Shown: positions 1,865 to 57,711 of the stretch, piece by piece | Layout: every line of letters starts with the position of its first letter | How positions within the stretch are numbered: the first letter of the stretch is position 1 | Notes under the pieces: model-generated | The model's input: only the letters and a program-made list of their open reading frames with translations | What the model was told of the DNA's origin: nothing | The model's database searches: none | Translations under genes and position numbers: made by a program | From: Bacteroidota bacterium | GTDB taxonomy: Bacteria; Bacteroidota; Bacteroidia; CAILMK01 | NCBI GenBank assembly: GCA_036846145.1 | Contig: DAIUCM010000004.1 | Location: forward strand, 1,846-65,845 | Reading direction: 5' to 3' | Length of the DNA: 64,000 bases

Positions 1865-2060
1865 TTTGCTTTTTTATTCTGAAAGCTATAAAATGAATTT
1901 GCCTCATAATGTTTAACGGCACTGCATGTGGGGGAATTTTTTTTCAATTAAAAATTAAAAATGCCGCGACGCGGAAATCAATTACAAATTTTGAATTAAT
2001 GCCGTTTGGTTAAGGATTTTTCAAAAGTATTGGTAAATTCAATATATGTGTTTCCAAATC

Positions 2061-2290
2061 ACTTTTTGCCCTCCATTGCCGGGCAGGCTATCCCGATGCA
2101 TCGGGACAAAAGTTCAGGGATGTAAATTATAAGCCAAAAACAGCTTTAAAGCATATTCCACCCTAACCCGTACCAAATTTAATTTGAAAATTTGAAAACT
2201 GGGAGATTTATGGATCGCGAAGCACTGGTTCCTGATAATTGATAAGCTATTTTCTTAACGATTATAATTTAAGGCCGTTCTAACGCTTTG
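2061..2290. repeat. Mosaic intergenic element, copy A. It is homologous to 63159-63495.
   Basis: It shares three modules with copy B: ttgccgggc(a/t)ggc, tgtaaattataag..aaaaacagctttaaagcatat..caccc.aacccg.acc, and tattttcttaacg.ttataatttaaggcc. Confidence 0.7.
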
Positions 2291-2507
2291 CAGTTCTTTT
2301 TACTTTTATCAAAATTAATATAAATTATTAATATCTGATTTCTAATTATTTACGTTGCACCAAGCCCTGAATGGGCGAACTATATCAGCATGGGGCAAAG
2401 CCCTATGTATAAAACGTCCTTACCTAAACGACATTGAATTAAAAATTACGAATAACTAATACAACGATACAAAGCAACCTTCCAAGTTCACTACCTTCAT
2501 GCATATA

Positions 2508-6692: not shown

Positions 6693-6940
6693 AAATGAAA
6701 ATTTATATTGCCAAAAGTAGTGAAATTATGTACAATCATTCGCAAAGCTGTTAATTTAATATAAGTATCTGGACGAAAATGTTGTGCATTGGATTACAGA
6801 AAGAAAACAAAACGCAAACTGCTTTAAATTATATTGCTGGATCAACTTAAGCAGTGCAATTTGATTTTAACTAAATCCGTCATCATACTTACAATGGCGA
6901 ATCTGCATGTAAGAATTAATGTCAAAATAGAATGAGTATT

Positions 6941-7045
6941 GCGCATTTGAAAAGTGTGCTGTGAACCACAGGACACAGAGCTTCGAAGCATTACTCCCTG
7001 GTTCGTGGTACACAAACCAGCATTTTTTACGCATTTTTAAGGCTG
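6941..7045. repeat. Roughly 100-nt dispersed repeat, candidate sRNA, copy A. Copy B is at 56068-56170.
   Basis: About 85% identity between copies over about 100 nt. One substitution pair is compensatory: ACCAC...GTGGT in A against GCCAC...GTGGC in B. Confidence 0.6.
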
Positions 7046-7423
7046 TTTTGATTTAGCGAAGTCAATGTCGTTTAGTTGTGGAAATTTTTTTATTGGAGGT
7101 CTGTGCGCCACAAGCCTCGGAGCAGTGATTTTAGAATTCCACTAAAATTTAGATCATCTTAAAATTCTAAATTTATAACATATTAAACGATTAAATTTTA
7201 AGTCGGAGCTCCCTGTGCTGTTACTCACAGCCCGGAATTTGTAGGGAAACTACCTTAACTAGATGACATTGATAGCGCAGTAAAATTTTTTTATTGTCGG
7301 AGCTGAATTCCTATCCTTATTTAGGCGAGCTGACTGAAGGTTAATTAGGTTTATTAAGCAAATTTTACTGTCAGGCACTTACTTAATTTAACTTGAGCTC
7401 GCGAATTAATTACTTGATTATCG

Positions 7424-7557
7424 ATAAGTATTAGGACAAAAGTATTGGGTATTGAGTACTGAGAATAATACAGAAGATTAAATGGTTGTTTATTAACTAT
7501 TTACAGCTGATACCAAAGTGCAATTTAATTAAAACTAAATTTGTCCTAATACTTATA
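7424..7557. repeat. MITE-like unit bounded by a 17-bp perfect inverted repeat
   Basis: ataagtattaggacaaa and tttgtcctaatacttat flank a roughly 97-bp AT-rich core directly beside the stop of the MBL gene. Confidence 0.5.
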
Positions 7558-7568
7558 AGTAATTAATT

Positions 7569-9359: not shown

Positions 9360-10274
9360 ATGAAAAAACAAATCTCAAAATTGCTTTTAGGCTGTGCGCT
9401 TATTGCGTTCAGTATAGGTTCCTGTACAAAAGATAACGGCACACCACCGGATAATAAACCCGATATTAAAGATACAACACCAAAAGAGCCGGCATTCCTT
9501 GCAGACTCAACGCCTAAAACCCGTGTTGCTGTACTTGAAGATTTTACCGGCGTTCGCTGCCAGTATTGTCCTGATGGCCATGATAGGGCAAAAGCAATTG
9601 AGGCAGATTATGGCGACAGGTTTATCACTATTGCTAACCACAGTGGCGGATATGCGGCGCCACAAACAGGCTGGAATAACTTTACTACCAAATATGGTGA
9701 AGCTATTGACAGGCAGGCCGCACCGCTTGGTTACCCGGCCGGCACAATTAACAGGCTGGTATTTGAGGATTACCTGCAAACAAGCGGAACATATGTATCT
9801 AAAATGGCCATGAATCGTAACAACTGGCGAGCTGCGGCAGAAGAGGCAATGGGCATGCCTGCACCGGTAAATCTTGGCGCAAAGGCTATTTTTGATGAGG
9901 CTACCCGCAAGCTTACTGTAAGAGTAGATATTTACTATACTGCGGACGAGACTGTAGCCAACAATTTGAATGTAGCTATTTTACAGGATAATTTATTATC
10001 AAGGCAAAGCAATACAAATGGCATTAACAGAGATTACCCACAACATAATGTTTTACGCGATTATCTGACCGGCCAGTGGGGCGAGGTAATTACTGAAGCA
10101 AAAACAAAAGGCGCTAAAATCACAAAAACTTATGTTTATGATGTTCCTGCCGATTATAATGGTACAGGCCCATCTGGCGGTGGCGCTGTTGTAATTGACG
10201 ATCTTAAAGTTGTAGCTTTTGTAGCGCGTGGCAGAAAAGATATTACCAACGCTGTTGAAGTTGATGTAAAATAA
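9360..10274 (+). CDS. Lipoprotein, Omp28-related-like, with a CxxC motif
   Basis: A 304-aa ORF with a lipobox (GSC) and the motif RCQYCPDGH. Confidence 0.45.
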   Translation: MKKQISKLLLGCALIAFSIGSCTKDNGTPPDNKPDIKDTTPKEPAFLADSTPKTRVAVLEDFTGVRCQYCPDGHDRAKAIEADYGDRFITIANHSGGYAAPQTGWNNFTTKYGEAIDRQAAPLGYPAGTINRLVFEDYLQTSGTYVSKMAMNRNNWRAAAEEAMGMPAPVNLGAKAIFDEATRKLTVRVDIYYTADETVANNLNVAILQDNLLSRQSNTNGINRDYPQHNVLRDYLTGQWGEVITEAKTKGAKITKTYVYDVPADYNGTGPSGGGAVVIDDLKVVAFVARGRKDITNAVEVDVK

Positions 10275-19561: not shown

Positions 19562-19670
19562 GCTTTTGCATAAGCTTTTAAAATCTAAAGCTGGAAAGGT
19601 TTCCGGTCTTTAAATATATAAATTGTTATGTGGTAAAATAGTTTATAAATTGCAAATTCATATTATTAAA

Positions 19671-20534
19671 ATGGCAAGACAAAAAAGACATCTAGGTTTA
19701 CCGCAAGTAAATGATCTTTTTAAACCAGTCCTTCAGGCATTAATTAAATTAGGCGGCTCTGGAAATATTGAAGAAATGAATGAACAGGTTTATGAGATAA
19801 TCAATATTCCTGAAGAGCTATTGAATTTACCGCATGGCGATGACGGACGAACAGAAATTGAATATCGGCTTGCATGGGCGAGAACTTTTCTAAAAAAATA
19901 TGGACTTATAAATAATTCGGCAAGAAGTGTTTGGGCCTTGACCAAATCAAATATTAATTTAAATGAAATCGATCCAGTTCTTATTGATAAAACGGTTAGA
20001 AAATCTGCCAGAGTTACACAGGTAGATAACAAAATACCTATAAAGCATGATATAGAAACTGAGGTTGAAGTTGCAGACTGGAAGGATCAATTATTGGATA
20101 AATTATATAATATTTCTCCTAGCTCATTTGAACGGCTTGCGCAACGACTCTTGCGAGAAAGCGGATTTATACAAGTTGAGGTAACTGGAAAAACTGGTGA
20201 TGGCGGCATTGATGGAAAAGGAATAGTCAGGATTAATGGATTTCTAAGTTTTCATGTAATCTTTCAATGTAAAAGGTATAAAAGCTCAGTAAGCCCAAGT
20301 CAGATTAGAGATTTTAGGGGAGCAATGCAAGGAAGAGCTGACAAAGGTTTATTTATAACAACAGGAACATTTACACGGGAAGCAACAAAAGAAGCAACCC
20401 GAGATGGCGCACCGCCAATAGATTTAATTGATGGTGAATTATTATGTGAAAAGCTGAAAGAGTTGAAATTAGGAATTGAAATTGAATTAGTTGAGAATGT
20501 AACAATCAGAACAGATTGGTTTGATCAGCTTTAA
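19671..20534 (+). CDS. mrr: Mrr-family type IV (modification-dependent) restriction endonuclease
   Basis: An N-terminal Mrr_N wHTH plus the catalytic core GDGGIDGKGIV...FQCKRY. The gene is AT-rich. Confidence 0.8.
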   Translation: MARQKRHLGLPQVNDLFKPVLQALIKLGGSGNIEEMNEQVYEIINIPEELLNLPHGDDGRTEIEYRLAWARTFLKKYGLINNSARSVWALTKSNINLNEIDPVLIDKTVRKSARVTQVDNKIPIKHDIETEVEVADWKDQLLDKLYNISPSSFERLAQRLLRESGFIQVEVTGKTGDGGIDGKGIVRINGFLSFHVIFQCKRYKSSVSPSQIRDFRGAMQGRADKGLFITTGTFTREATKEATRDGAPPIDLIDGELLCEKLKELKLGIEIELVENVTIRTDWFDQL

Positions 20535-24397: not shown

Positions 24398-25237
24398 TTG
24401 CAGGGAATAACTTATTTGGAAGCCGAATTCAGCTCGCCGCAGCAAGATGTATTTGAAATACTGATGGCCGAGTTGGCCGATATTGGCTTTGAGAGCTTTA
24501 CGGAAGAAGAAGATTCACTTAAAGCATTTATACAGAAAGATATATATGCAGAAGCCGACTTCAGCGAACTTTGCGACAGGCTTCTGCATAAATTCCCGTT
24601 CAGCTATAAGCTGCGCGAAATAGCGCCGCAGAACTGGAACGCCGTTTGGGAAAGCAATTTTCCGGATATTACGGTTGATGATAAAGTGCATGTTCGCGCA
24701 CAATTCCATGAGCCAAAGCCGGAGTATCCTATTGAAATAGTCATTCAGCCGAAAATGAGCTTCGGCACCGGCCACCATGCCACCACCTGGAGCGTAATGA
24801 AGCTGATGCTGGACATAGATTTCAGCCATAAAAAAGTTTTTGATTTTGGTACAGGAACCGGAATTCTGGCTATTTTAGCGCAAAAACTGGGCGCTACAGA
24901 AATATGGGCGGTAGATAATGATCCGCAATGCATAGAAAACTCTGAAGAAAACTTTGAGCTGAACGATACGCAGGAAATTAAGCTTGCTTTGGGCGATATT
25001 ACCGCTTTTCAAAATAATACTTACGATATAATAATCGGCAATATTACACGTAATGTTATATTAGCCTTTATTGGGCAAATTGCAACTAATTTAAAGCAGA
25101 ACGGTGTATTTATTGCAAGTGGATTTTATGAAAACGATCTCGCTGTAATTGAGGAAGCTGCCGCTGCGCTTTCGCTGAAATTAAAAACAATGCAAAGCCG
25201 CGATAACTGGTGCGCCGCTGTTTTTACAAAACTATAA
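24398..25237 (+). CDS. prmA: Ribosomal protein L11 methyltransferase
   Basis: A 279-aa ORF with the SAM motif FDFGTGTGILAI. The start is TTG. Confidence 0.8.
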   Translation: MQGITYLEAEFSSPQQDVFEILMAELADIGFESFTEEEDSLKAFIQKDIYAEADFSELCDRLLHKFPFSYKLREIAPQNWNAVWESNFPDITVDDKVHVRAQFHEPKPEYPIEIVIQPKMSFGTGHHATTWSVMKLMLDIDFSHKKVFDFGTGTGILAILAQKLGATEIWAVDNDPQCIENSEENFELNDTQEIKLALGDITAFQNNTYDIIIGNITRNVILAFIGQIATNLKQNGVFIASGFYENDLAVIEEAAAALSLKLKTMQSRDNWCAAVFTKL

Positions 25238-30281: not shown

Positions 30282-30351
30282 CATATATAACAATAGCAAA
30301 AAATGCTTTAGGTAGAGATACTTAAAGCATTTTTTGTTAGTTGTATATATG
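30282..30351. repeat. Full dyad element: CATATAT-N9-AAAAAATGCTTTA-loop-TAAAGCATTTTTT-N8-TATATATG
   Basis: A near-perfect 70-bp dyad directly after the plsY stop. It is the prototype of a family that recurs in full or half form at 25 or more sites. Confidence 0.8.
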
Positions 30352-31605: not shown

Positions 31606-31712
31606 CGGTTTGGCGTTGAGCGGTTTGCGATTGGCGATGTGAGATTTTCTGATAATTAAAAATCTTATATTTTGCCAGAATGTAATATATAATACAATTA
31701 AAAATGCTTTAA

Positions 31713-31753: not shown

Positions 31754-32233
31754 TTGCATATATAGGATTCAATGTAGATTAGTTAAGGATGGAATAAATT
31801 CCATCCCTACAATATTTGATCGTCCATACTGGACTTGATTAACGCCACGAAACAAATACCGTAGGAATGATAAAATATTGTAGTAATGGATTTTAATCCG
31901 TTGAAAACAAGAATTTTCTTAACTAAACGACATTGATACAGGATCGCTGAAAATGCTTTATTCAACATATATGATATATGTACAAATAAGTATGGTTTGT
32001 ATTACAGGAAAATGAGATTTTCAGTTCGAAGCTTTGAGGTCAAGATGACTCGAATGACACTTTTCAAAACCACATGATTCATGACATATTGTTAATATTA
32101 TTCACATTCATTACTAAATTCATGAAAACAAGCCCGCAACAGATTTTATATATTCTCTCAAACCGCAAACCGCATGTCTCAGACCCCTAACCGCACGCCG
32201 CATCCAACAAAAAATTCATAACTTTGCCACTAT

Positions 32234-53552: not shown

Positions 53553-54884
53553 ATGTTTGAAAATTTATCGGACAAGATTGAAGGTGCGTTTAAGAAGCTG
53601 AAAGGCGAAGGCCGCATTACCGAGATAAACATGGCGGAAACGCTGAAAGATATTCGCCGGGCGCTGGTTGATGCTGACGTTAACTATAAAATTGCCAAAA
53701 CTTTTACCGACGAAGTAAAGCAGAAAGCCATTGGCGCTGAGGTTATTAAGAGCGTAAATCCTGGCCAGCAGCTTGTTAAGATCATGAACGATGAACTTGT
53801 GCAGCTAATGGGCGGTACAAAATCTGACCTGAATCTCAGCGGAAGCCCAAGCATTATTCTTATGAGTGGTTTGCAGGGTTCGGGAAAAACTACTTTCTCT
53901 GCAAAACTGGCCAATTATTTAAAAGGTAAAGGCAAGAAACCAATGCTTGTTGCGGCAGACGTTTATAGGCCGGCGGCAATTAACCAGCTGAAGGTTTTAG
54001 GTGAGCAATTAGGCGTTGAAGTTTATAACGAGCCAGAAAATAAAAACCCGGTTTCTATCGCGCAAAACGCTATTGCACATGCCAAGCAGAGCGGGAAAAA
54101 TGTAGTAATTATAGATACTGCTGGCCGATTATCTGTAGATGAACAGATGATGAACGAAATCGCCGAGCTGAAAGCGCAAACCAAACCGCATGAGATCCTT
54201 TTCGTAGTGGATGCTATGACCGGCCAGGATGCTGTAAACACTGCTAAAGTATTTAACGATCGTCTTGATTTTAACGGTGTTGTATTGACTAAATTAGATG
54301 GTGATACACGCGGCGGTGCTGCATTATCAATTATGAGCGTGGTAAGCAAGCCGATAAAATTTGTTGGTGTCGGCGAGAAGATGGATGCGCTGGATGTTTT
54401 CTACCCGGATCGTATGGCGCAGCGTATTCTGGGTATGGGCGATATCGTTTCCTTCGTAGAGAAAGCACAAGCTGCTATTGATGAGCAGGAAGCAGAGCGT
54501 TTGCAGAAAAAACTCCGCAAAAGCCAGTTCGATTTCGAAGATTTTCTTGGCCAGCTGAAGCAGATAAAGAAAATGGGTAACGTGAAGGATTTGATGGCCA
54601 TGATTCCCGGCGTTGGAAAAGCTGTGAAAGATATGGAATTTGATGAATCGGCCTTCAAACACACCGAAGCCATTATCTTAAGCATGACGCCAAGAGAACG
54701 TAAAAATCCTGATATTTTAGATGCCAAACGTAAGCAGCGAATTGCAAATGGCAGCGGCACAACTATTCAGCAGGTAAACCAGCTAATTACGCAGTTATTC
54801 GAAATGCGTAAAATGATGAAATTGATGAATAAAATGCAAATGAGCGGCCGTGGCATGAAAGGAATGCCCTTTATGAAAAAGTAA
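53553..54884 (+). CDS. ffh: Signal recognition particle protein Ffh
   Basis: GLQGSGKTT, DTAGR and a methionine-rich M domain. Confidence 0.95.
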   Translation: MFENLSDKIEGAFKKLKGEGRITEINMAETLKDIRRALVDADVNYKIAKTFTDEVKQKAIGAEVIKSVNPGQQLVKIMNDELVQLMGGTKSDLNLSGSPSIILMSGLQGSGKTTFSAKLANYLKGKGKKPMLVAADVYRPAAINQLKVLGEQLGVEVYNEPENKNPVSIAQNAIAHAKQSGKNVVIIDTAGRLSVDEQMMNEIAELKAQTKPHEILFVVDAMTGQDAVNTAKVFNDRLDFNGVVLTKLDGDTRGGAALSIMSVVSKPIKFVGVGEKMDALDVFYPDRMAQRILGMGDIVSFVEKAQAAIDEQEAERLQKKLRKSQFDFEDFLGQLKQIKKMGNVKDLMAMIPGVGKAVKDMEFDESAFKHTEAIILSMTPRERKNPDILDAKRKQRIANGSGTTIQQVNQLITQLFEMRKMMKLMNKMQMSGRGMKGMPFMKK

Positions 54885-54910
54885 AGCATTTTCTGCAATA
54901 AACATATATG

Positions 54911-55643: not shown

Positions 55644-55830
55644 TTACATTTAATAACGTGAGCTCTGGCATTAATTGTTTTATTTTCAGCAATTTAATTC
55701 CAGTATTACATATATCCCTTAGTCGAAAAATGCCCCGAGGTATCGGGATATATTACTTTAAACCTTGATTTGAATTGGACGCACAAATTCAGTACATGGG
55801 TTTGTTCTGCGAAGTTTTAAACTTCGCATA

Positions 55831-55864
55831 TTTTAACTGGTAGTTTGCAAACTACCAGTTAAAA
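55831..55864. promoter_or_regulatory. A 34-bp perfect palindrome, candidate operator or protein-binding site
   Basis: ttttaactggtagtttgcaaactaccagttaaaa. The adjacent gcgaagttttaaacttcgc is a near-palindrome. Confidence 0.5.
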
Positions 55865-55974
55865 TAATCTTAGCAAAAATGCTATGATTAGCAGTAATAC
55901 TATCTGATTAATTCCCAAGTTCACATCTTAATAGCAAAACAAAGCATTTTTTGCACTCCCTATATATGGGCGTT

Positions 55975-56041
55975 TAACATAATACGAGAAAACCGCATTT
56001 GCAAAGCTGCAAGTGCGGTTTTCTCGTATTATGTTATTTTC
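55975..56041 (+). terminator. Hairpin with a 22-bp perfect stem followed by a T-rich tract
   Basis: aacataatacgagaaaaccgca / tgcggttttctcgtattatgtt with a 17-nt loop, then attttc. Confidence 0.5.
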
Positions 56042-56067
56042 AAAAATTATAAAATATAGAATAAACA

Positions 56068-56170
56068 GTGCGCATTTGAAAGTGTTTTTGAGCCACAGGC
56101 CACGGAGCTTCGAAACAATACTCCTTGGTTTCGTGGCACACAAACCTGCATTATTTACGCATATTTCATT
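56068..56170. repeat. Roughly 100-nt dispersed repeat, candidate sRNA, copy B
   Basis: See 6941-7045. Confidence 0.6.
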
Positions 56171-56181
56171 TTATATTGGTA

Positions 56182-57711
56182 TTAAATCAGAGGTTTACCT
56201 GTCATTTCTGCAGGCTGTTCAATACCCATAAGCTGTAAAATAGTTGGCGCTACATCTGCTAATCTGCCTTCGTTTAAGTGTACTGATTCTCCACCGTTTA
56301 ATAAAACACAAGGTACAAGGTTGGTAGTGTGCGCGGTATTTGGCGTTCCATCGGCATTTACCATAAAATCGGCATTACCATGGTCGGCAATAATCAGTAC
56401 GGCATAATCATTCTCAAGGCAGGCGTTTACAACCTTCTCTGTACATTTATCAATGGTTTCCAGGGCTTTAACAACAGCATCAAAAACGCCCGTGTGGCCA
56501 ACCATGTCCGGGTTCGCAAAATTCAGTACAATTAAATCGTTCGCTTTGCTATTAATTTCATTTACAACAGCTTCTGTAATTTCATTGGCGCTCATTTCCG
56601 GCTGCAGATCATAAGTGGGCACTTTCGGCGATGGAACCATAATTCTTTTTTCGCCATGGAATTCGGTTTCCCGCCCGCCGGAAAAGAAAAAGGTTACGTG
56701 CGGATATTTTTCAGTTTCTGCAATGCGTAGCTGCGTTTTGCCGGCTGCTTCTACCACTTCGCCAAGCGTTTTTTGCAGATTCTGTTCTTCAAAAAGTATT
56801 TTTACATCTTTATACGTCTGGTCGTATTGCGTCATGGTAATGTAATGCAGTTTTAAGGCACGCATACCAAACTCGGGGAAATCCTGCTGGCACAGGGCCT
56901 GTGTTAGCTGCCGGCCTCTGTCCGTACGGAAGTTGAAGAACAACACAACATCGCCATCTCCAATTGTAGCAAGCGGTTTATCATCATCATCCGTTATAAC
57001 TACAGGTTTTATAAACTCATCGGTAATATTGTTTTCGTACGAATTTCTGATCGCTTCCTGCGGGCTCTTATATTTTTCACCTGCGCCATGTACCAGTAAA
57101 TCATAAGCCAGTTTTACACGTTCCCAGCGTTTATCGCGGTCCATTGCATAATAACGGCCAATTACAGATGCAATTTTACCAGTGGTTTGCGTCAAAGCAT
57201 TTTCCAGCTGGCTTATATATGTAATCCCGCTTTTCGGATCCGTATCGCGGCCATCTGTAAACGCATGTATATAAAGGTTTTGTACATTTTTCCGCTTGGC
57301 AATAGCGCAAAGTTCCTTCACATGTTCCAGGCTGGCATGCACGCCGCCATCGCTAACCAGGCCAAGTAAATGTATTTTTTTATTGTTTGCAGAAGCGTAT
57401 TCAAACGCCTCGTTTAAAACAGGATGCGTATCCAGAATATTATCTTCAAAAGCCTTATTGATCAGCGCGAGCTGCTGGTAAACAACTCTTCCGGCGCCAA
57501 TATTCAAATGCCCGACTTCGGAGTTTCCCATCTGGCCTTTTGGCAAGCCAACATTTTCGCCGCTGGTTTTTAAAGTAGTATGCGGATATTTATTGAAAAG
57601 GCCTTTTATGAATGGCACATTTGCACGAGCAATAGCATTAACCTGCGGGTTTTCTTCGCCAATTCCCCAGCCATCTAAAATCAATAAAGCAACCTGTTTA
57701 TTTTTTTTCAT
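56182..57711 (-). CDS. gpmI: 2,3-bisphosphoglycerate-independent phosphoglycerate mutase
   Basis: A 509-aa ORF starting MKKNKQVALLILDGWGIG. Confidence 0.95.
   Translation of the reverse strand: MKKNKQVALLILDGWGIGEENPQVNAIARANVPFIKGLFNKYPHTTLKTSGENVGLPKGQMGNSEVGHLNIGAGRVVYQQLALINKAFEDNILDTHPVLNEAFEYASANNKKIHLLGLVSDGGVHASLEHVKELCAIAKRKNVQNLYIHAFTDGRDTDPKSGITYISQLENALTQTTGKIASVIGRYYAMDRDKRWERVKLAYDLLVHGAGEKYKSPQEAIRNSYENNITDEFIKPVVITDDDDKPLATIGDGDVVLFFNFRTDRGRQLTQALCQQDFPEFGMRALKLHYITMTQYDQTYKDVKILFEEQNLQKTLGEVVEAAGKTQLRIAETEKYPHVTFFFSGGRETEFHGEKRIMVPSPKVPTYDLQPEMSANEITEAVVNEINSKANDLIVLNFANPDMVGHTGVFDAVVKALETIDKCTEKVVNACLENDYAVLIIADHGNADFMVNADGTPNTAHTTNLVPCVLLNGGESVHLNEGRLADVAPTILQLMGIEQPAEMTGKPLI

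What the first reader, a model, noticed from the sequence alone, without database searches (positions are those of the whole stretch)
6941..7045. Roughly 100-nt repeated element with a compensatory base change, a candidate sRNA or structured repeat family
The copies at 6941-7045 and 56068-56170 are about 85% identical and in the same orientation. One paired substitution preserves complementarity: ACCAC...GTGGT in copy A becomes GCCAC...GTGGC in copy B. That pattern is what is expected of a conserved RNA helix. Both copies sit in unusually long ORF-free intergenic regions. Copy B follows a 22-bp-stem hairpin with a T-tract at 55975-56041. Both end in T-rich ...TTTACGCATTTTT.
Basis: seen in the sequence. 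Interest (0 to 1): 0.6.

Follow-up and report, generated by a model that had tools for sequence, protein, structure and literature searches.

The report
Small palindromic mobile-element repeat, not sRNA
The two ~100-nt look-alike sequences are real, but they are most likely the cores of small non-coding mobile DNA insertions (foldback MITEs) found only in this uncultured hot-spring bacterium, so the finding is fairly ordinary and gives no real evidence for a conserved regulatory RNA.

Summary
Copies A (6924-7045) and B (56053-56170) are 83% identical, and there is a third, decayed copy C (32090-31962, minus strand). The sRNA reading is not supported.

- **The compensatory pair is weak evidence.** The single A-U/G-C change is strand-symmetric. 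Copy C breaks that helix. A change of this kind appears in 44-46% of random-mutation simulations.
- **No known or conserved RNA.** Rfam has no match, and no canonical Bacteroidota promoter precedes any copy.
- **Restricted to this genome.** No copy occurs in ~114 kb from relatives or in the genome, metagenome and viral pattern scans.
- **Insertions.** At two conserved sites (M48-ddl spacer, gpmI 3' end) relatives lack the element.
- **MITE anatomy.** A and B are imperfect palindromes centred on TTCGAA. Their arms are co-linear with the arms of an adjacent MITE that has ~19-bp inverted termini and 8-bp target duplications.

Best explanation: cores of ~150-bp foldback MITEs (confidence ~0.68). 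B sits between the gpmI stop codon and its terminator, so it is probably co-transcribed passively.

Separately, a clade-specific 27-nt motif, AAGCATTTTT-N9-TATATATG, occurs ~0.6 times per kb, including inside genes. It is more intriguing than the finding itself.

The parts
6916..7055 (+). Left terminus TTAATGTC at 6916. Left arm contains GCTGTGAACCACAGGACACAGAGC. Centre is GCTTCGAAGC. Right arm contains CTCCCTGGTTCGTGGTACACAAACC. Right terminus is GATTTA, about 7050-7055.
   Evidence: 83% identity to B. (self-reverse-complement z=2.6, 8/500 shuffles). (arms co-linear with MITE-A; the terminus lies 42 nt before GCTGTGA, versus 41 nt in MITE-A).
56034..56185 (+). Left terminus TTATTTTCAA overlaps the last 3 nt of the upstream hairpin. 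The right terminus ...GGTATTAA overlaps the gpmI stop codon (56182-56184).
   Evidence: (palindrome z=3.4, 3/500). (B_right_rc TTAATACCAATATAAAATGAAATATGCG aligns with A_left TTAATGTCAAAATAGAATGAGTATTGCG). (gpmI ends ...TGKPLI* here, versus ...SLIN*...SLIIKD* and ...SLLG* in relatives).
31958..32098 (-). Element C, a decayed third copy (~60% identical to A/B). It keeps TTTGAAAAGTGT, AGCTTCGAA, ACAAACC and TTATTT. It has lost the palindromic arms and the 3' hairpin. Its right terminus abuts a 27-nt motif.
   Evidence: nhmmer. (no palindromy, z=-0.5). (3' hairpin only -1.2 kcal/mol). (absent from the orthologous M48-ddl spacer of three relatives).
7062..7272 (+). MITE-A, a 211-bp foldback MITE inserted exactly at the right end of element A. 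TIRs are TCAATGTCGTTTAGTT and AACTAGATGACATTGA. The 8-bp target duplication is TAGCGAAG (7054-7061) / TAGCGCAG (7273-7280). Its interior arms are homologous to the arms of elements A and B.
   Evidence: TIR and TSD. (interior versus B z=3.6, 1/300; versus A z=3.0, 5/300). (arm HMM trained on A/B only hits 7094-7123, E=0.003).
31769..31936 (-). MITE-C, a 168-bp MITE with the same TIR (TCAATGTCGTTTAGTTAAG / CTTAACTAATCTACATTGA). The 8-bp duplication is ATCCTGTA (31944-31937) / ATCCTATA (31768-31761). It is inserted in the spacer of a 27-nt motif. Its interior is unrelated to MITE-A.
   Evidence: excising it together with one duplication copy restores CATATATA-GGATCGCTG-AAAATGCTTT, matching the motif present at that site in relatives.
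1997..2437 (+). Probable third member of the TIR family (TTAATGCCGTTTGGTTAAGG ... CCTTACCTAAACGACATTGA), 441 bp, with no clear target duplication.
   Evidence: TIR search and sequence.
55975..56036 (.). The 20-22-bp-stem hairpin that precedes B. Read in the gpmI direction, the order is stop codon, element B, hairpin, reverse-orientation 27-nt motif. This is the same hairpin-then-motif order seen directly after the gpmI stop in relative L062. It is a terminator, not part of the element.
   Evidence: terminator-like call on + strand. (comparison with L061, L062 and L063).
55942..55968 (+). Copy of the clade-specific 27-nt motif (AAGCATTTTTTGCACTCCCTATATATG) next to the hairpin. It is context, not part of the element.

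Best explanation
The repeated ~105-nt sequence is the central part of a ~150-bp non-autonomous foldback transposon (MITE).

Anatomy. Each copy has two imperfectly complementary arms around a TTCGAA centre. The termini resemble T(C/T)AATGTC. These are the termini of a MITE family whose younger members (7062-7272 and 31769-31936) still have ~19-bp terminal inverted repeats and 8-bp target-site duplications.

Inferred mechanism. A transposase encoded elsewhere in the genome (not in this window) recognises the termini and moved the elements into intergenic DNA of this lineage only. Copies A, B and C are older and decayed, so their own target duplications are no longer visible. The ACCAC/GTGGT 'helix' is simply the two arms of the palindrome.

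Consequence. The elements have no demonstrated function. B lies between the gpmI stop codon and its terminator, so it is probably carried passively in the gpmI 3' UTR, where it could form a long hairpin.

Shown: the repeat family, palindromy, absence from relatives, insertion at two conserved sites, and TIR plus TSD on the neighbouring members. Inferred: homology of A/B/C to that MITE family (moderate statistics), mobilisation in trans, and lack of function.
For: 1. A and B are significantly self-complementary around TTCGAA (z=2.6 and 3.4). The two strands fold equally well.
2. Both arms of A, of B and of MITE-A share one architecture: terminus, ~33 nt, GGT-yTGTG-nGCCAC-R-..CC..GGAGC, centre.
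3. TTAATGTC lies 42 nt before GCTGTGA in A. TCAATGTC lies 41 nt before GCTGTGA in MITE-A.
4. An HMM built from A/B arms alone hits MITE-A's left arm (E=0.003). Local alignments of A and B to the MITE-A interior beat shuffles (1/300 and 5/300).
5. MITE-A and MITE-C have TIRs and 8-bp duplications. Excising MITE-C restores an intact 27-nt motif also present in relatives.
6. Synteny M48->ddl is conserved, but the spacer is 628 nt here versus 336, 266 and 187 nt in relatives, which lack C.
7. Relatives have a terminator within ~25 nt of the gpmI stop. The window has ~135 extra nt (element B) there, and gpmI is 1-3 residues shorter.
8. No copy and no TIR occurs in ~114 kb from relatives at 64-84% amino-acid identity. 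Genome, metagenome and viral pattern scans gave only chance hits.
9. MITE-A inserted exactly at A's terminus, and MITE-C lies 57 nt from C's ACAAACC block. This fits repeat-into-repeat nesting.
Against: - No target-site duplication is recognisable for A, B or C themselves.
- Their termini match the family TIR only partly (TTAATGTC, TTATTTTC, TTAATACC, TAAATC).
- The HMM link to MITE-A is modest: one arm at E=0.003, the other not found at E<1.
- MITE-C shares only the TIR, not the interior.
- No autonomous transposase with these termini was found. About 35 ORFs scanned in the window are all housekeeping.
- Only three copies are available, so copy number in the genome is unknown.
- A and B do carry a terminator-like hairpin plus U-run on the + strand (A: -8.7 kcal/mol followed by CAUUUUUU). 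An sRNA gene would also have this feature.
Confidence: 0.68

Rival explanations
1. A young, lineage-specific family of small RNA genes. Each copy would be transcribed on the strand the reader chose, from its own promoter just upstream of GCGCATTTG, and would end at the 3' hairpin plus U-run. The ACCAC/GUGGU helix would be part of the functional fold.
For: - On the + strand, A and B end in a terminator-like hairpin: CUGGUUCGUGGUACACAAACCAG followed by CAUUUUUU at -8.7 kcal/mol, and -5.7 kcal/mol for B.
- All three copies converge on the downstream gene, as free-standing genes could.
- Single-copy folds are somewhat better than shuffles (z -2.2 and -3.6).
- There is one A-U/G-C double change.
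Against: - The double change is expected in ~45% of random mutants and fits both strands.
- Copy C breaks the helix and lacks the terminator.
- The minus strand folds as well or better.
- There is no Rfam hit.
- No TAnnTTTG-type promoter is near any copy, although this organism does use that box, for example upstream of the 206-aa gene and of ddl. Sigma-70-like hits do not exceed shuffles.
- It is absent from relatives, including orthologous sites.
- B's homology runs into the gpmI stop codon.
Confidence: 0.12
2. An exapted cis-acting RNA or DNA module. The palindromic insert would act in the transcripts of flanking genes as a 3'-UTR stabiliser, an extra or bidirectional terminator, or an RNase target. 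This is reported for ERIC, Correia, BOX and RUP elements (from my own knowledge of those families).
For: - B sits between the gpmI stop codon and the terminator hairpin, so it should be co-transcribed.
- All copies lie next to terminator hairpins or 27-nt motifs.
- The long imperfect hairpin folds at about -32 kcal/mol on either strand.
Against: - Nothing shows selection. C has decayed, and A and B differ at 15 of ~100 positions plus 3 indels, with changes in the arms.
- The contexts of A, B and C differ.
- No expression data are available.
Confidence: 0.12
3. Plain segmental duplication of intergenic DNA, or shared promoter/operator regions, without any mobile-element mechanism.
For: No target duplications are visible for A, B or C. 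The copy number seen is low, at 3 in 64 kb.
Against: - The flanks are unrelated.
- The copies are discrete units with palindromic symmetry and MITE-like termini.
- They appear as insertions at conserved sites.
- They lie on either strand relative to neighbouring genes and in a convergent intergenic region, which does not fit an operator role.
Confidence: 0.05

Closest known systems
Bacterial MITEs / foldback non-autonomous transposons (for example Correia/NEMIS of Neisseria, RUP of Streptococcus pneumoniae, and the Porphyromonas gingivalis and Cardinium MITEs listed)
   Same: - Size of 100-450 bp with no coding capacity.
- Inverted-repeat termini and an intergenic location.
- Lineage-restricted distribution and insertion polymorphism against relatives.
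- Nesting next to one another.
- Target duplications on the younger members.
- Insertion at gene 3' ends, so that they are co-transcribed.
   Different: - No parent IS or transposase has been identified.
- A, B and C lack visible target duplications and have degraded termini.
- The sequence is unrelated to any plasmid or phage record and to pattern scans of public genomes.
- The 8-bp duplication and the TCAATGTCGTTTAGTT terminus could not be assigned to a named IS family here.
ERIC / BOX-type imperfect-palindrome intergenic repeats
   Same: An imperfect palindrome of ~100-130 bp around a central core. It is transcribed with neighbouring genes, able to form a long RNA hairpin, and fits both strands.
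   Different: Those families are widespread within their host groups and present in many copies. Here only three decayed copies are seen, in a single uncultured lineage, and they are linked to a TIR/TSD-bearing MITE family.
Rho-independent-terminated trans-acting sRNA genes
   Same: About 100 nt, intergenic, with a 3' stem-loop plus U-run in A and B.
   Different: No promoter, no conservation in relatives, no strand asymmetry, no supported covariation and no Rfam family.

Membership tests
MITE (miniature inverted-repeat transposable element) | Terminal inverted repeats | tested here: met
   MITE-A and MITE-C have 16-19-bp TIRs, TCAATGTCGTTTAGTT(AAG). For A and B the termini are degenerate versions (TTAATGTC / TTATTTTC / TTAATACC / TAAATC), and the two ends of each element align as inverted repeats. 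This is weaker for A, B and C than for the neighbouring MITEs.
MITE (miniature inverted-repeat transposable element) | Target-site duplication flanking the insertion | tested here: inconclusive
   8-bp duplications (7 of 8 identical) flank MITE-A (TAGCGAAG/TAGCGCAG) and MITE-C (ATCCTGTA/ATCCTATA). None is recognisable for elements A, B or C themselves.
MITE (miniature inverted-repeat transposable element) | Small, non-coding, multiple dispersed copies | tested here: met
   Three copies of ~140-150 bp plus three related TIR-bearing elements lie in 64 kb. No small ORF is conserved: the 55-aa minus-strand ORF in A is interrupted in B (M-R-K-stop), and 1-nt indels separate the copies.
MITE (miniature inverted-repeat transposable element) | Presence/absence polymorphism at orthologous sites (empty sites) | tested here: met
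   The M48-ddl spacer is 628 nt here versus 336, 266 and 187 nt in relatives, which lack C and MITE-C. The gpmI 3' flank in relatives has no B. A's site could not be tested.
MITE (miniature inverted-repeat transposable element) | A related autonomous IS with the same termini encoding the transposase | tested here: not met
   No transposase was found among ~35 ORFs scanned in the window, and the TIR occurs only at the MITEs.
Structured small RNA family (Rfam-type) | Match to a curated covariance model | tested here: not met
   There are 0 matches at gathering score in the whole window. The best permissive hit on the element is 19 bits against a cut-off of 39, an unstructured fungal snoRNA model.
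Structured small RNA family (Rfam-type) | Covariation supporting a common fold across members | tested here: not met
   Between A and B there is one both-sides change in 19-23 predicted pairs. The null frequency is 0.44-0.46 per strand. Copy C breaks 3 of 5 pairs of the claimed helix. Only 3 sequences are available, so power is low.
Structured small RNA family (Rfam-type) | Conservation in related genomes | tested here: not met
   No hit occurs in ~114 kb from four related genomes and Chryseolinea soli. Genome, metagenome and viral pattern scans returned only chance matches.
Structured small RNA family (Rfam-type) | Own promoter and terminator; detectable transcript | tested here: inconclusive
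   A and B have a terminator-like 3' hairpin plus U-run on the + strand, but C does not. No TTG-N17-23-TAnnTTTG or TAnnTTTG box lies near any copy, and sigma-70-type matches do not exceed shuffles. Expression cannot be tested with these tools.
Diversity-generating retroelement template/variable repeat pair | Differences confined to adenines of one copy; one copy at the 3' end of a target gene; nearby reverse transcriptase | tested here: not met
   The 15 substitutions are mixed (6 transitions, 9 transversions, in all directions) and there are 3 indels. Both copies are non-coding, and no reverse transcriptase was found among the ORFs scanned.

The most novel reading that the evidence does not exclude
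The palindromic inserts could be domesticated. They might be transcribed (B as part of the gpmI 3' UTR; A and C from unrecognised promoters) and act as hairpin RNAs that set mRNA 3' ends or stability, or as a young MITE-derived sRNA family. A related possibility is that this MITE family specifically targets the clade-specific 27-nt motif and terminator landscape. MITE-C sits exactly in a motif spacer, C abuts a motif, and B abuts a terminator next to a motif. That would link a mobile element to a genome-wide signal of unknown function.
Probability: 0.1. Interest if true: 0.45.

Novelty: new member of a known kind. Interest (0 to 1): 0.2.

Why it matters
As an sRNA candidate it matters little, because the evidence offered for a conserved helix does not survive testing.

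As a MITE family it is a routine addition to the mobile-element catalogue of an uncultured Bacteroidota lineage from a hot spring. It still has three practical uses:
- It explains why this genome has unusually long ORF-free spacers, which are stacks of small repeats.
- It shows one insertion that redefines the stop codon of an essential glycolytic gene.
- It is a concrete warning that a single 'compensatory' change between two copies of a palindromic repeat is not evidence for an RNA.

The more valuable by-product is the 27-nt bipartite motif. It occurs about once per gene, inside and outside genes, and only in this narrow clade. It deserves its own investigation.

Tried and rejected
- **Rfam.** The whole window at gathering score and both intergenic regions at E<=10 gave nothing credible.
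- **Genome pattern scan.** The 5'-half blocks (TTTGAAA..GTGT..AGCTTCGAA) gave 17 hits in unrelated taxa, and I had estimated about 20 chance matches. All scored 3-11 bits against the element HMM.
- **Metagenome and viral pattern scans.** The 3'-half blocks gave 40 and 1 hits, in which only the fixed pattern positions agree.
- **Orthologous loci through flanking proteins.** No copies were found.
- **Small-ORF or type I toxin idea.** Rejected because no ORF is conserved between A and B and 1-nt indels separate them.
- **DGR template/variable repeat.** Rejected because the substitutions are not adenine-specific.
- **Riboswitch or 5' leader.** On the other strand, B is followed only by a terminator.
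- **Long hairpins after A and C as part of one large ncRNA.** I first read them this way because the folds are strong (z -4.9 and -6.4) and A's + strand is 17 kcal/mol more stable. I rejected this once TIRs, 8-bp duplications and the restored empty site showed they are separate MITE insertions.
- **27-nt motif as a promoter that could drive B.** Rejected. It occurs in both orientations, in convergent spacers and inside genes, and the organism uses the canonical TAnnTTTG box.
- **tRNA genes as promoter landmarks.** None are present in the window or the relatives' loci.
- **Plasmid and phage similarity.** None.
- **Literature.** String searches for the motif found nothing relevant.

Full report
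**Observation**

The two copies exist as described. A (6924-7045) and B (56053-56170) align in the same orientation at about 83% identity with three 1-2-nt indels (BLAST E ~1e-24). The paired substitution ACCAC...GTGGT versus GCCAC...GTGGC is present. Both copies end in TTTACGCAT(T/A)TTT. Both lie in long ORF-free spacers of 876 nt and 538 nt. B is preceded by a 20-22-bp hairpin. An HMM built from A and B found a third, decayed copy C on the minus strand at 32090-31962 (E=7e-4). C shares TTTGAAAAGTGT, AGCTTCGAA, ACAAACC and TTATTT.

**Is it a structured RNA?**

- Rfam gives no match at gathering score anywhere in the window, and nothing credible at permissive thresholds.
- The A+B consensus fold contains exactly one pair changed on both sides, A-U to G-C. 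This change fits either strand. The minus-strand consensus is actually more stable (-21.4 versus -10.9 kcal/mol).
- Single-sequence folds are about equal on the two strands.
- Adding C breaks three of the five pairs of the claimed helix.
- I simulated the null. Copy A was given 15 random substitutions with the observed transition/transversion mix. At least one 'compensatory' pair then appeared in the alifold consensus in 46% (+) and 44% (-) of 1000 trials. The central argument of the finding therefore carries essentially no weight.
- No Bacteroidota-type promoter (TTG-N17-23-TAnnTTTG, or the -7 box alone) lies near any copy. The same scan does find such boxes in front of the neighbouring 206-aa gene and ddl. 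The consensus itself is from my own knowledge of the phylum.

**Distribution**

The flanking proteins show that the window comes from a 68.9-kb MAG contig of an uncultured Bacteroidota lineage. Its nearest relatives have 81-84% amino-acid identity, and one is labelled 'Sphingobacteriales bacterium'. Identical proteins occur in Logan contigs of run SRR3961739. That run accession is listed in a paper on hot springs in Central India (PMC5214690).

Pattern scans of 185,579 species genomes, of JGI metagenomes and of viral contigs, using blocks conserved in all three copies, returned only chance matches. About 114 kb fetched from four relatives and Chryseolinea soli contains no copy.

**Insertions at conserved sites**

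- Copy C: the gene order M48 peptidase then ddl is conserved. The spacer is 628 nt here versus 336, 266 and 187 nt in three relatives. The relatives keep the terminator hairpin and flanking motifs but lack C and the hairpin module next to it.
- Copy B: relatives have a terminator within about 25 nt of the gpmI stop codon. In L062 the order is hairpin then reverse-orientation 27-nt motif. The window has that same hairpin-plus-motif arrangement, but with about 135 extra nt (element B) between the stop codon and the hairpin. Its gpmI ends 1-3 residues early, at a TAA that lies inside the element's terminal TTAAT.

**What the neighbouring hairpins are**

The long, very stable hairpins after A (7062-7272) and C (31936-31769) folded impressively (z -4.9 and -6.4). 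At first they looked like part of a larger RNA. They are MITEs. They share a 16-19-bp terminal inverted repeat, TCAATGTCGTTTAGTT(AAG). Each is flanked by an 8-bp duplication, TAGCGAAG/TAGCGCAG at A and ATCCTGTA/ATCCTATA at C. Excising the one at C restores an intact 27-nt motif found at the same place in relatives. A probable third member lies at 1997-2437.

**What the element itself is**

- A and B are imperfect palindromes centred on GCTTCGAAGC (self-reverse-complement z=2.6 and 3.4). C has lost this symmetry.
- The interior of MITE-A contains, in inverted orientation, segments homologous to both halves of the element (1/300 and 5/300 shuffles).
- I aligned all the half-elements: both arms of A, both arms of B and both arms of MITE-A. 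They share one architecture: terminus T(C/T)AAT..C, about 33 nt, GGT-yTGTG-nGCCAC-R-..CC..GGAGC, then the centre.
- TTAATGTC lies 42 nt before GCTGTGA in A. TCAATGTC lies 41 nt before the homologous GCTGTGA in MITE-A.
- An HMM trained only on the four A and B arms hits MITE-A's left arm (E=0.003) and nothing in the relatives.

The 'helix' is simply its two arms.

Weak points:
- A, B and C show no target duplications.
- Their termini are degraded.
- The statistical link to MITE-A is moderate.
- No transposase partner is in the window.

**Mechanism and rivals**

- Most likely (about 0.68): trans-mobilised, now decaying MITE insertions with no demonstrated function. B is probably carried passively in the gpmI 3' UTR.
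- sRNA gene family (about 0.12). This is kept alive mainly by a terminator-like hairpin plus U-run at the + strand 3' end of A (-8.7 kcal/mol) and B (-5.7 kcal/mol).
- Exapted cis-acting hairpin in flanking transcripts, as reported for ERIC, Correia and RUP (about 0.12).
- Plain duplication (about 0.05).

**Side finding**

A 27-nt bipartite motif, cAAAGCATTTTT-N9-TATATATGg, has 41 strict matches in the window against 0 in shuffles.
- Density: 0.5-0.9 per kb in the three relatives at 81-84% identity, but zero in a 73% relative, in Chryseolinea soli and in 399 kb of unrelated loci.
- Location: both orientations, inside genes (sense and antisense), at stop codons and next to terminators.
- Conservation: it sits at orthologous positions between genomes, including an identical 27-mer inside prmA.
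- It is not the housekeeping promoter.
- Its density and distribution recall uptake sequences or other genome-wide architectural words. It was not resolved here.

**Verdict**

The sRNA interpretation is not supported. The element is a new member of a known kind (MITE or foldback repeat) in an uncultured lineage. Interest is low (0.2).

Noticed in passing
window-wide, e.g. 55942-55968(+), 54884-54910(+), 57195-57221(+, inside gpmI), 24522-24548(+), 30282-30308(-)/30325-30351(+); also L061, L062, L063, L064, L066, L067: A hyper-abundant 27-nt bipartite motif, cAAAGCATTTTT-N9-TATATATGg, with fixed spacing. It has 41 strict hits in 64 kb versus 0 in shuffles (~0.64 per kb, about one per gene). It occurs in both orientations, inside conserved coding regions, overlapping stop or start codons, and next to terminator hairpins (strong hairpin downstream in 13 of 72 cases versus 3 of 72 upstream). 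Positions are conserved at orthologous sites in the closest relative. It is restricted to the clade at >=81% amino-acid identity, with 0 hits in a 73% relative, in Chryseolinea soli and in 399 kb of unrelated loci. It is not the canonical TAnnTTTG promoter. Its density and pattern resemble uptake sequences (USS/DUS) or another genome-wide architectural signal..
   Followed up: partly
window 56182-56185 and gpmI 56182-57711(-): The terminal TTAAT of element B appears to supply the TAA stop codon of gpmI. The protein ends ...TGKPLI*, 1-3 residues shorter than in three relatives. A mobile-element insertion seems to have redefined the 3' end of an essential gene.
   Followed up: partly
window 6853-6894 vs 7517-7558; 7404-7440 vs 7540-7568: A 42-nt direct repeat (81% identical) brackets the whole ORF-free region that contains A and MITE-A. 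A further ~17-bp inverted repeat (AAGTATTAGGACAAA / TTTGTCCTAATACTT) encloses about 7411-7556. This suggests yet another small repeat or insertion in the same spacer.
   Followed up: no
window 2107-2290 vs 63267-63498; 2362-2403 vs 48018-48059; 46624-46689 vs 48088-48153: Other dispersed intergenic repeat families, 79-94% identical. One contains tandem TTGGCTAATT units, and part lies inside the putative 441-bp MITE at 1997-2437.
   Followed up: no
window 31610-31650 and 32150-32205; L064 ~9900-9990; L066 ~1040-1110: Clusters of CAAACCGC / CCGC repeats lie upstream of the ddl promoter and are conserved in relatives. Their reverse complement (GCGGTTTG, twice) follows the M48 stop in the window. 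This may be a regulatory or pairing element for the 898-aa ddl-family gene, which carries two Ddl modules.
   Followed up: no
window 55829-55866 and 55808-55828: A perfect 38-nt palindrome and an adjacent 21-nt hairpin lie downstream of the cyclophilin gene. The Logan contig L018 ends at about window position 55840, inside this palindrome.
   Followed up: no
window 19623-20534(+): An Mrr-type restriction endonuclease gene (Mrr_N plus Mrr_cat) lies among housekeeping genes.
   Followed up: no
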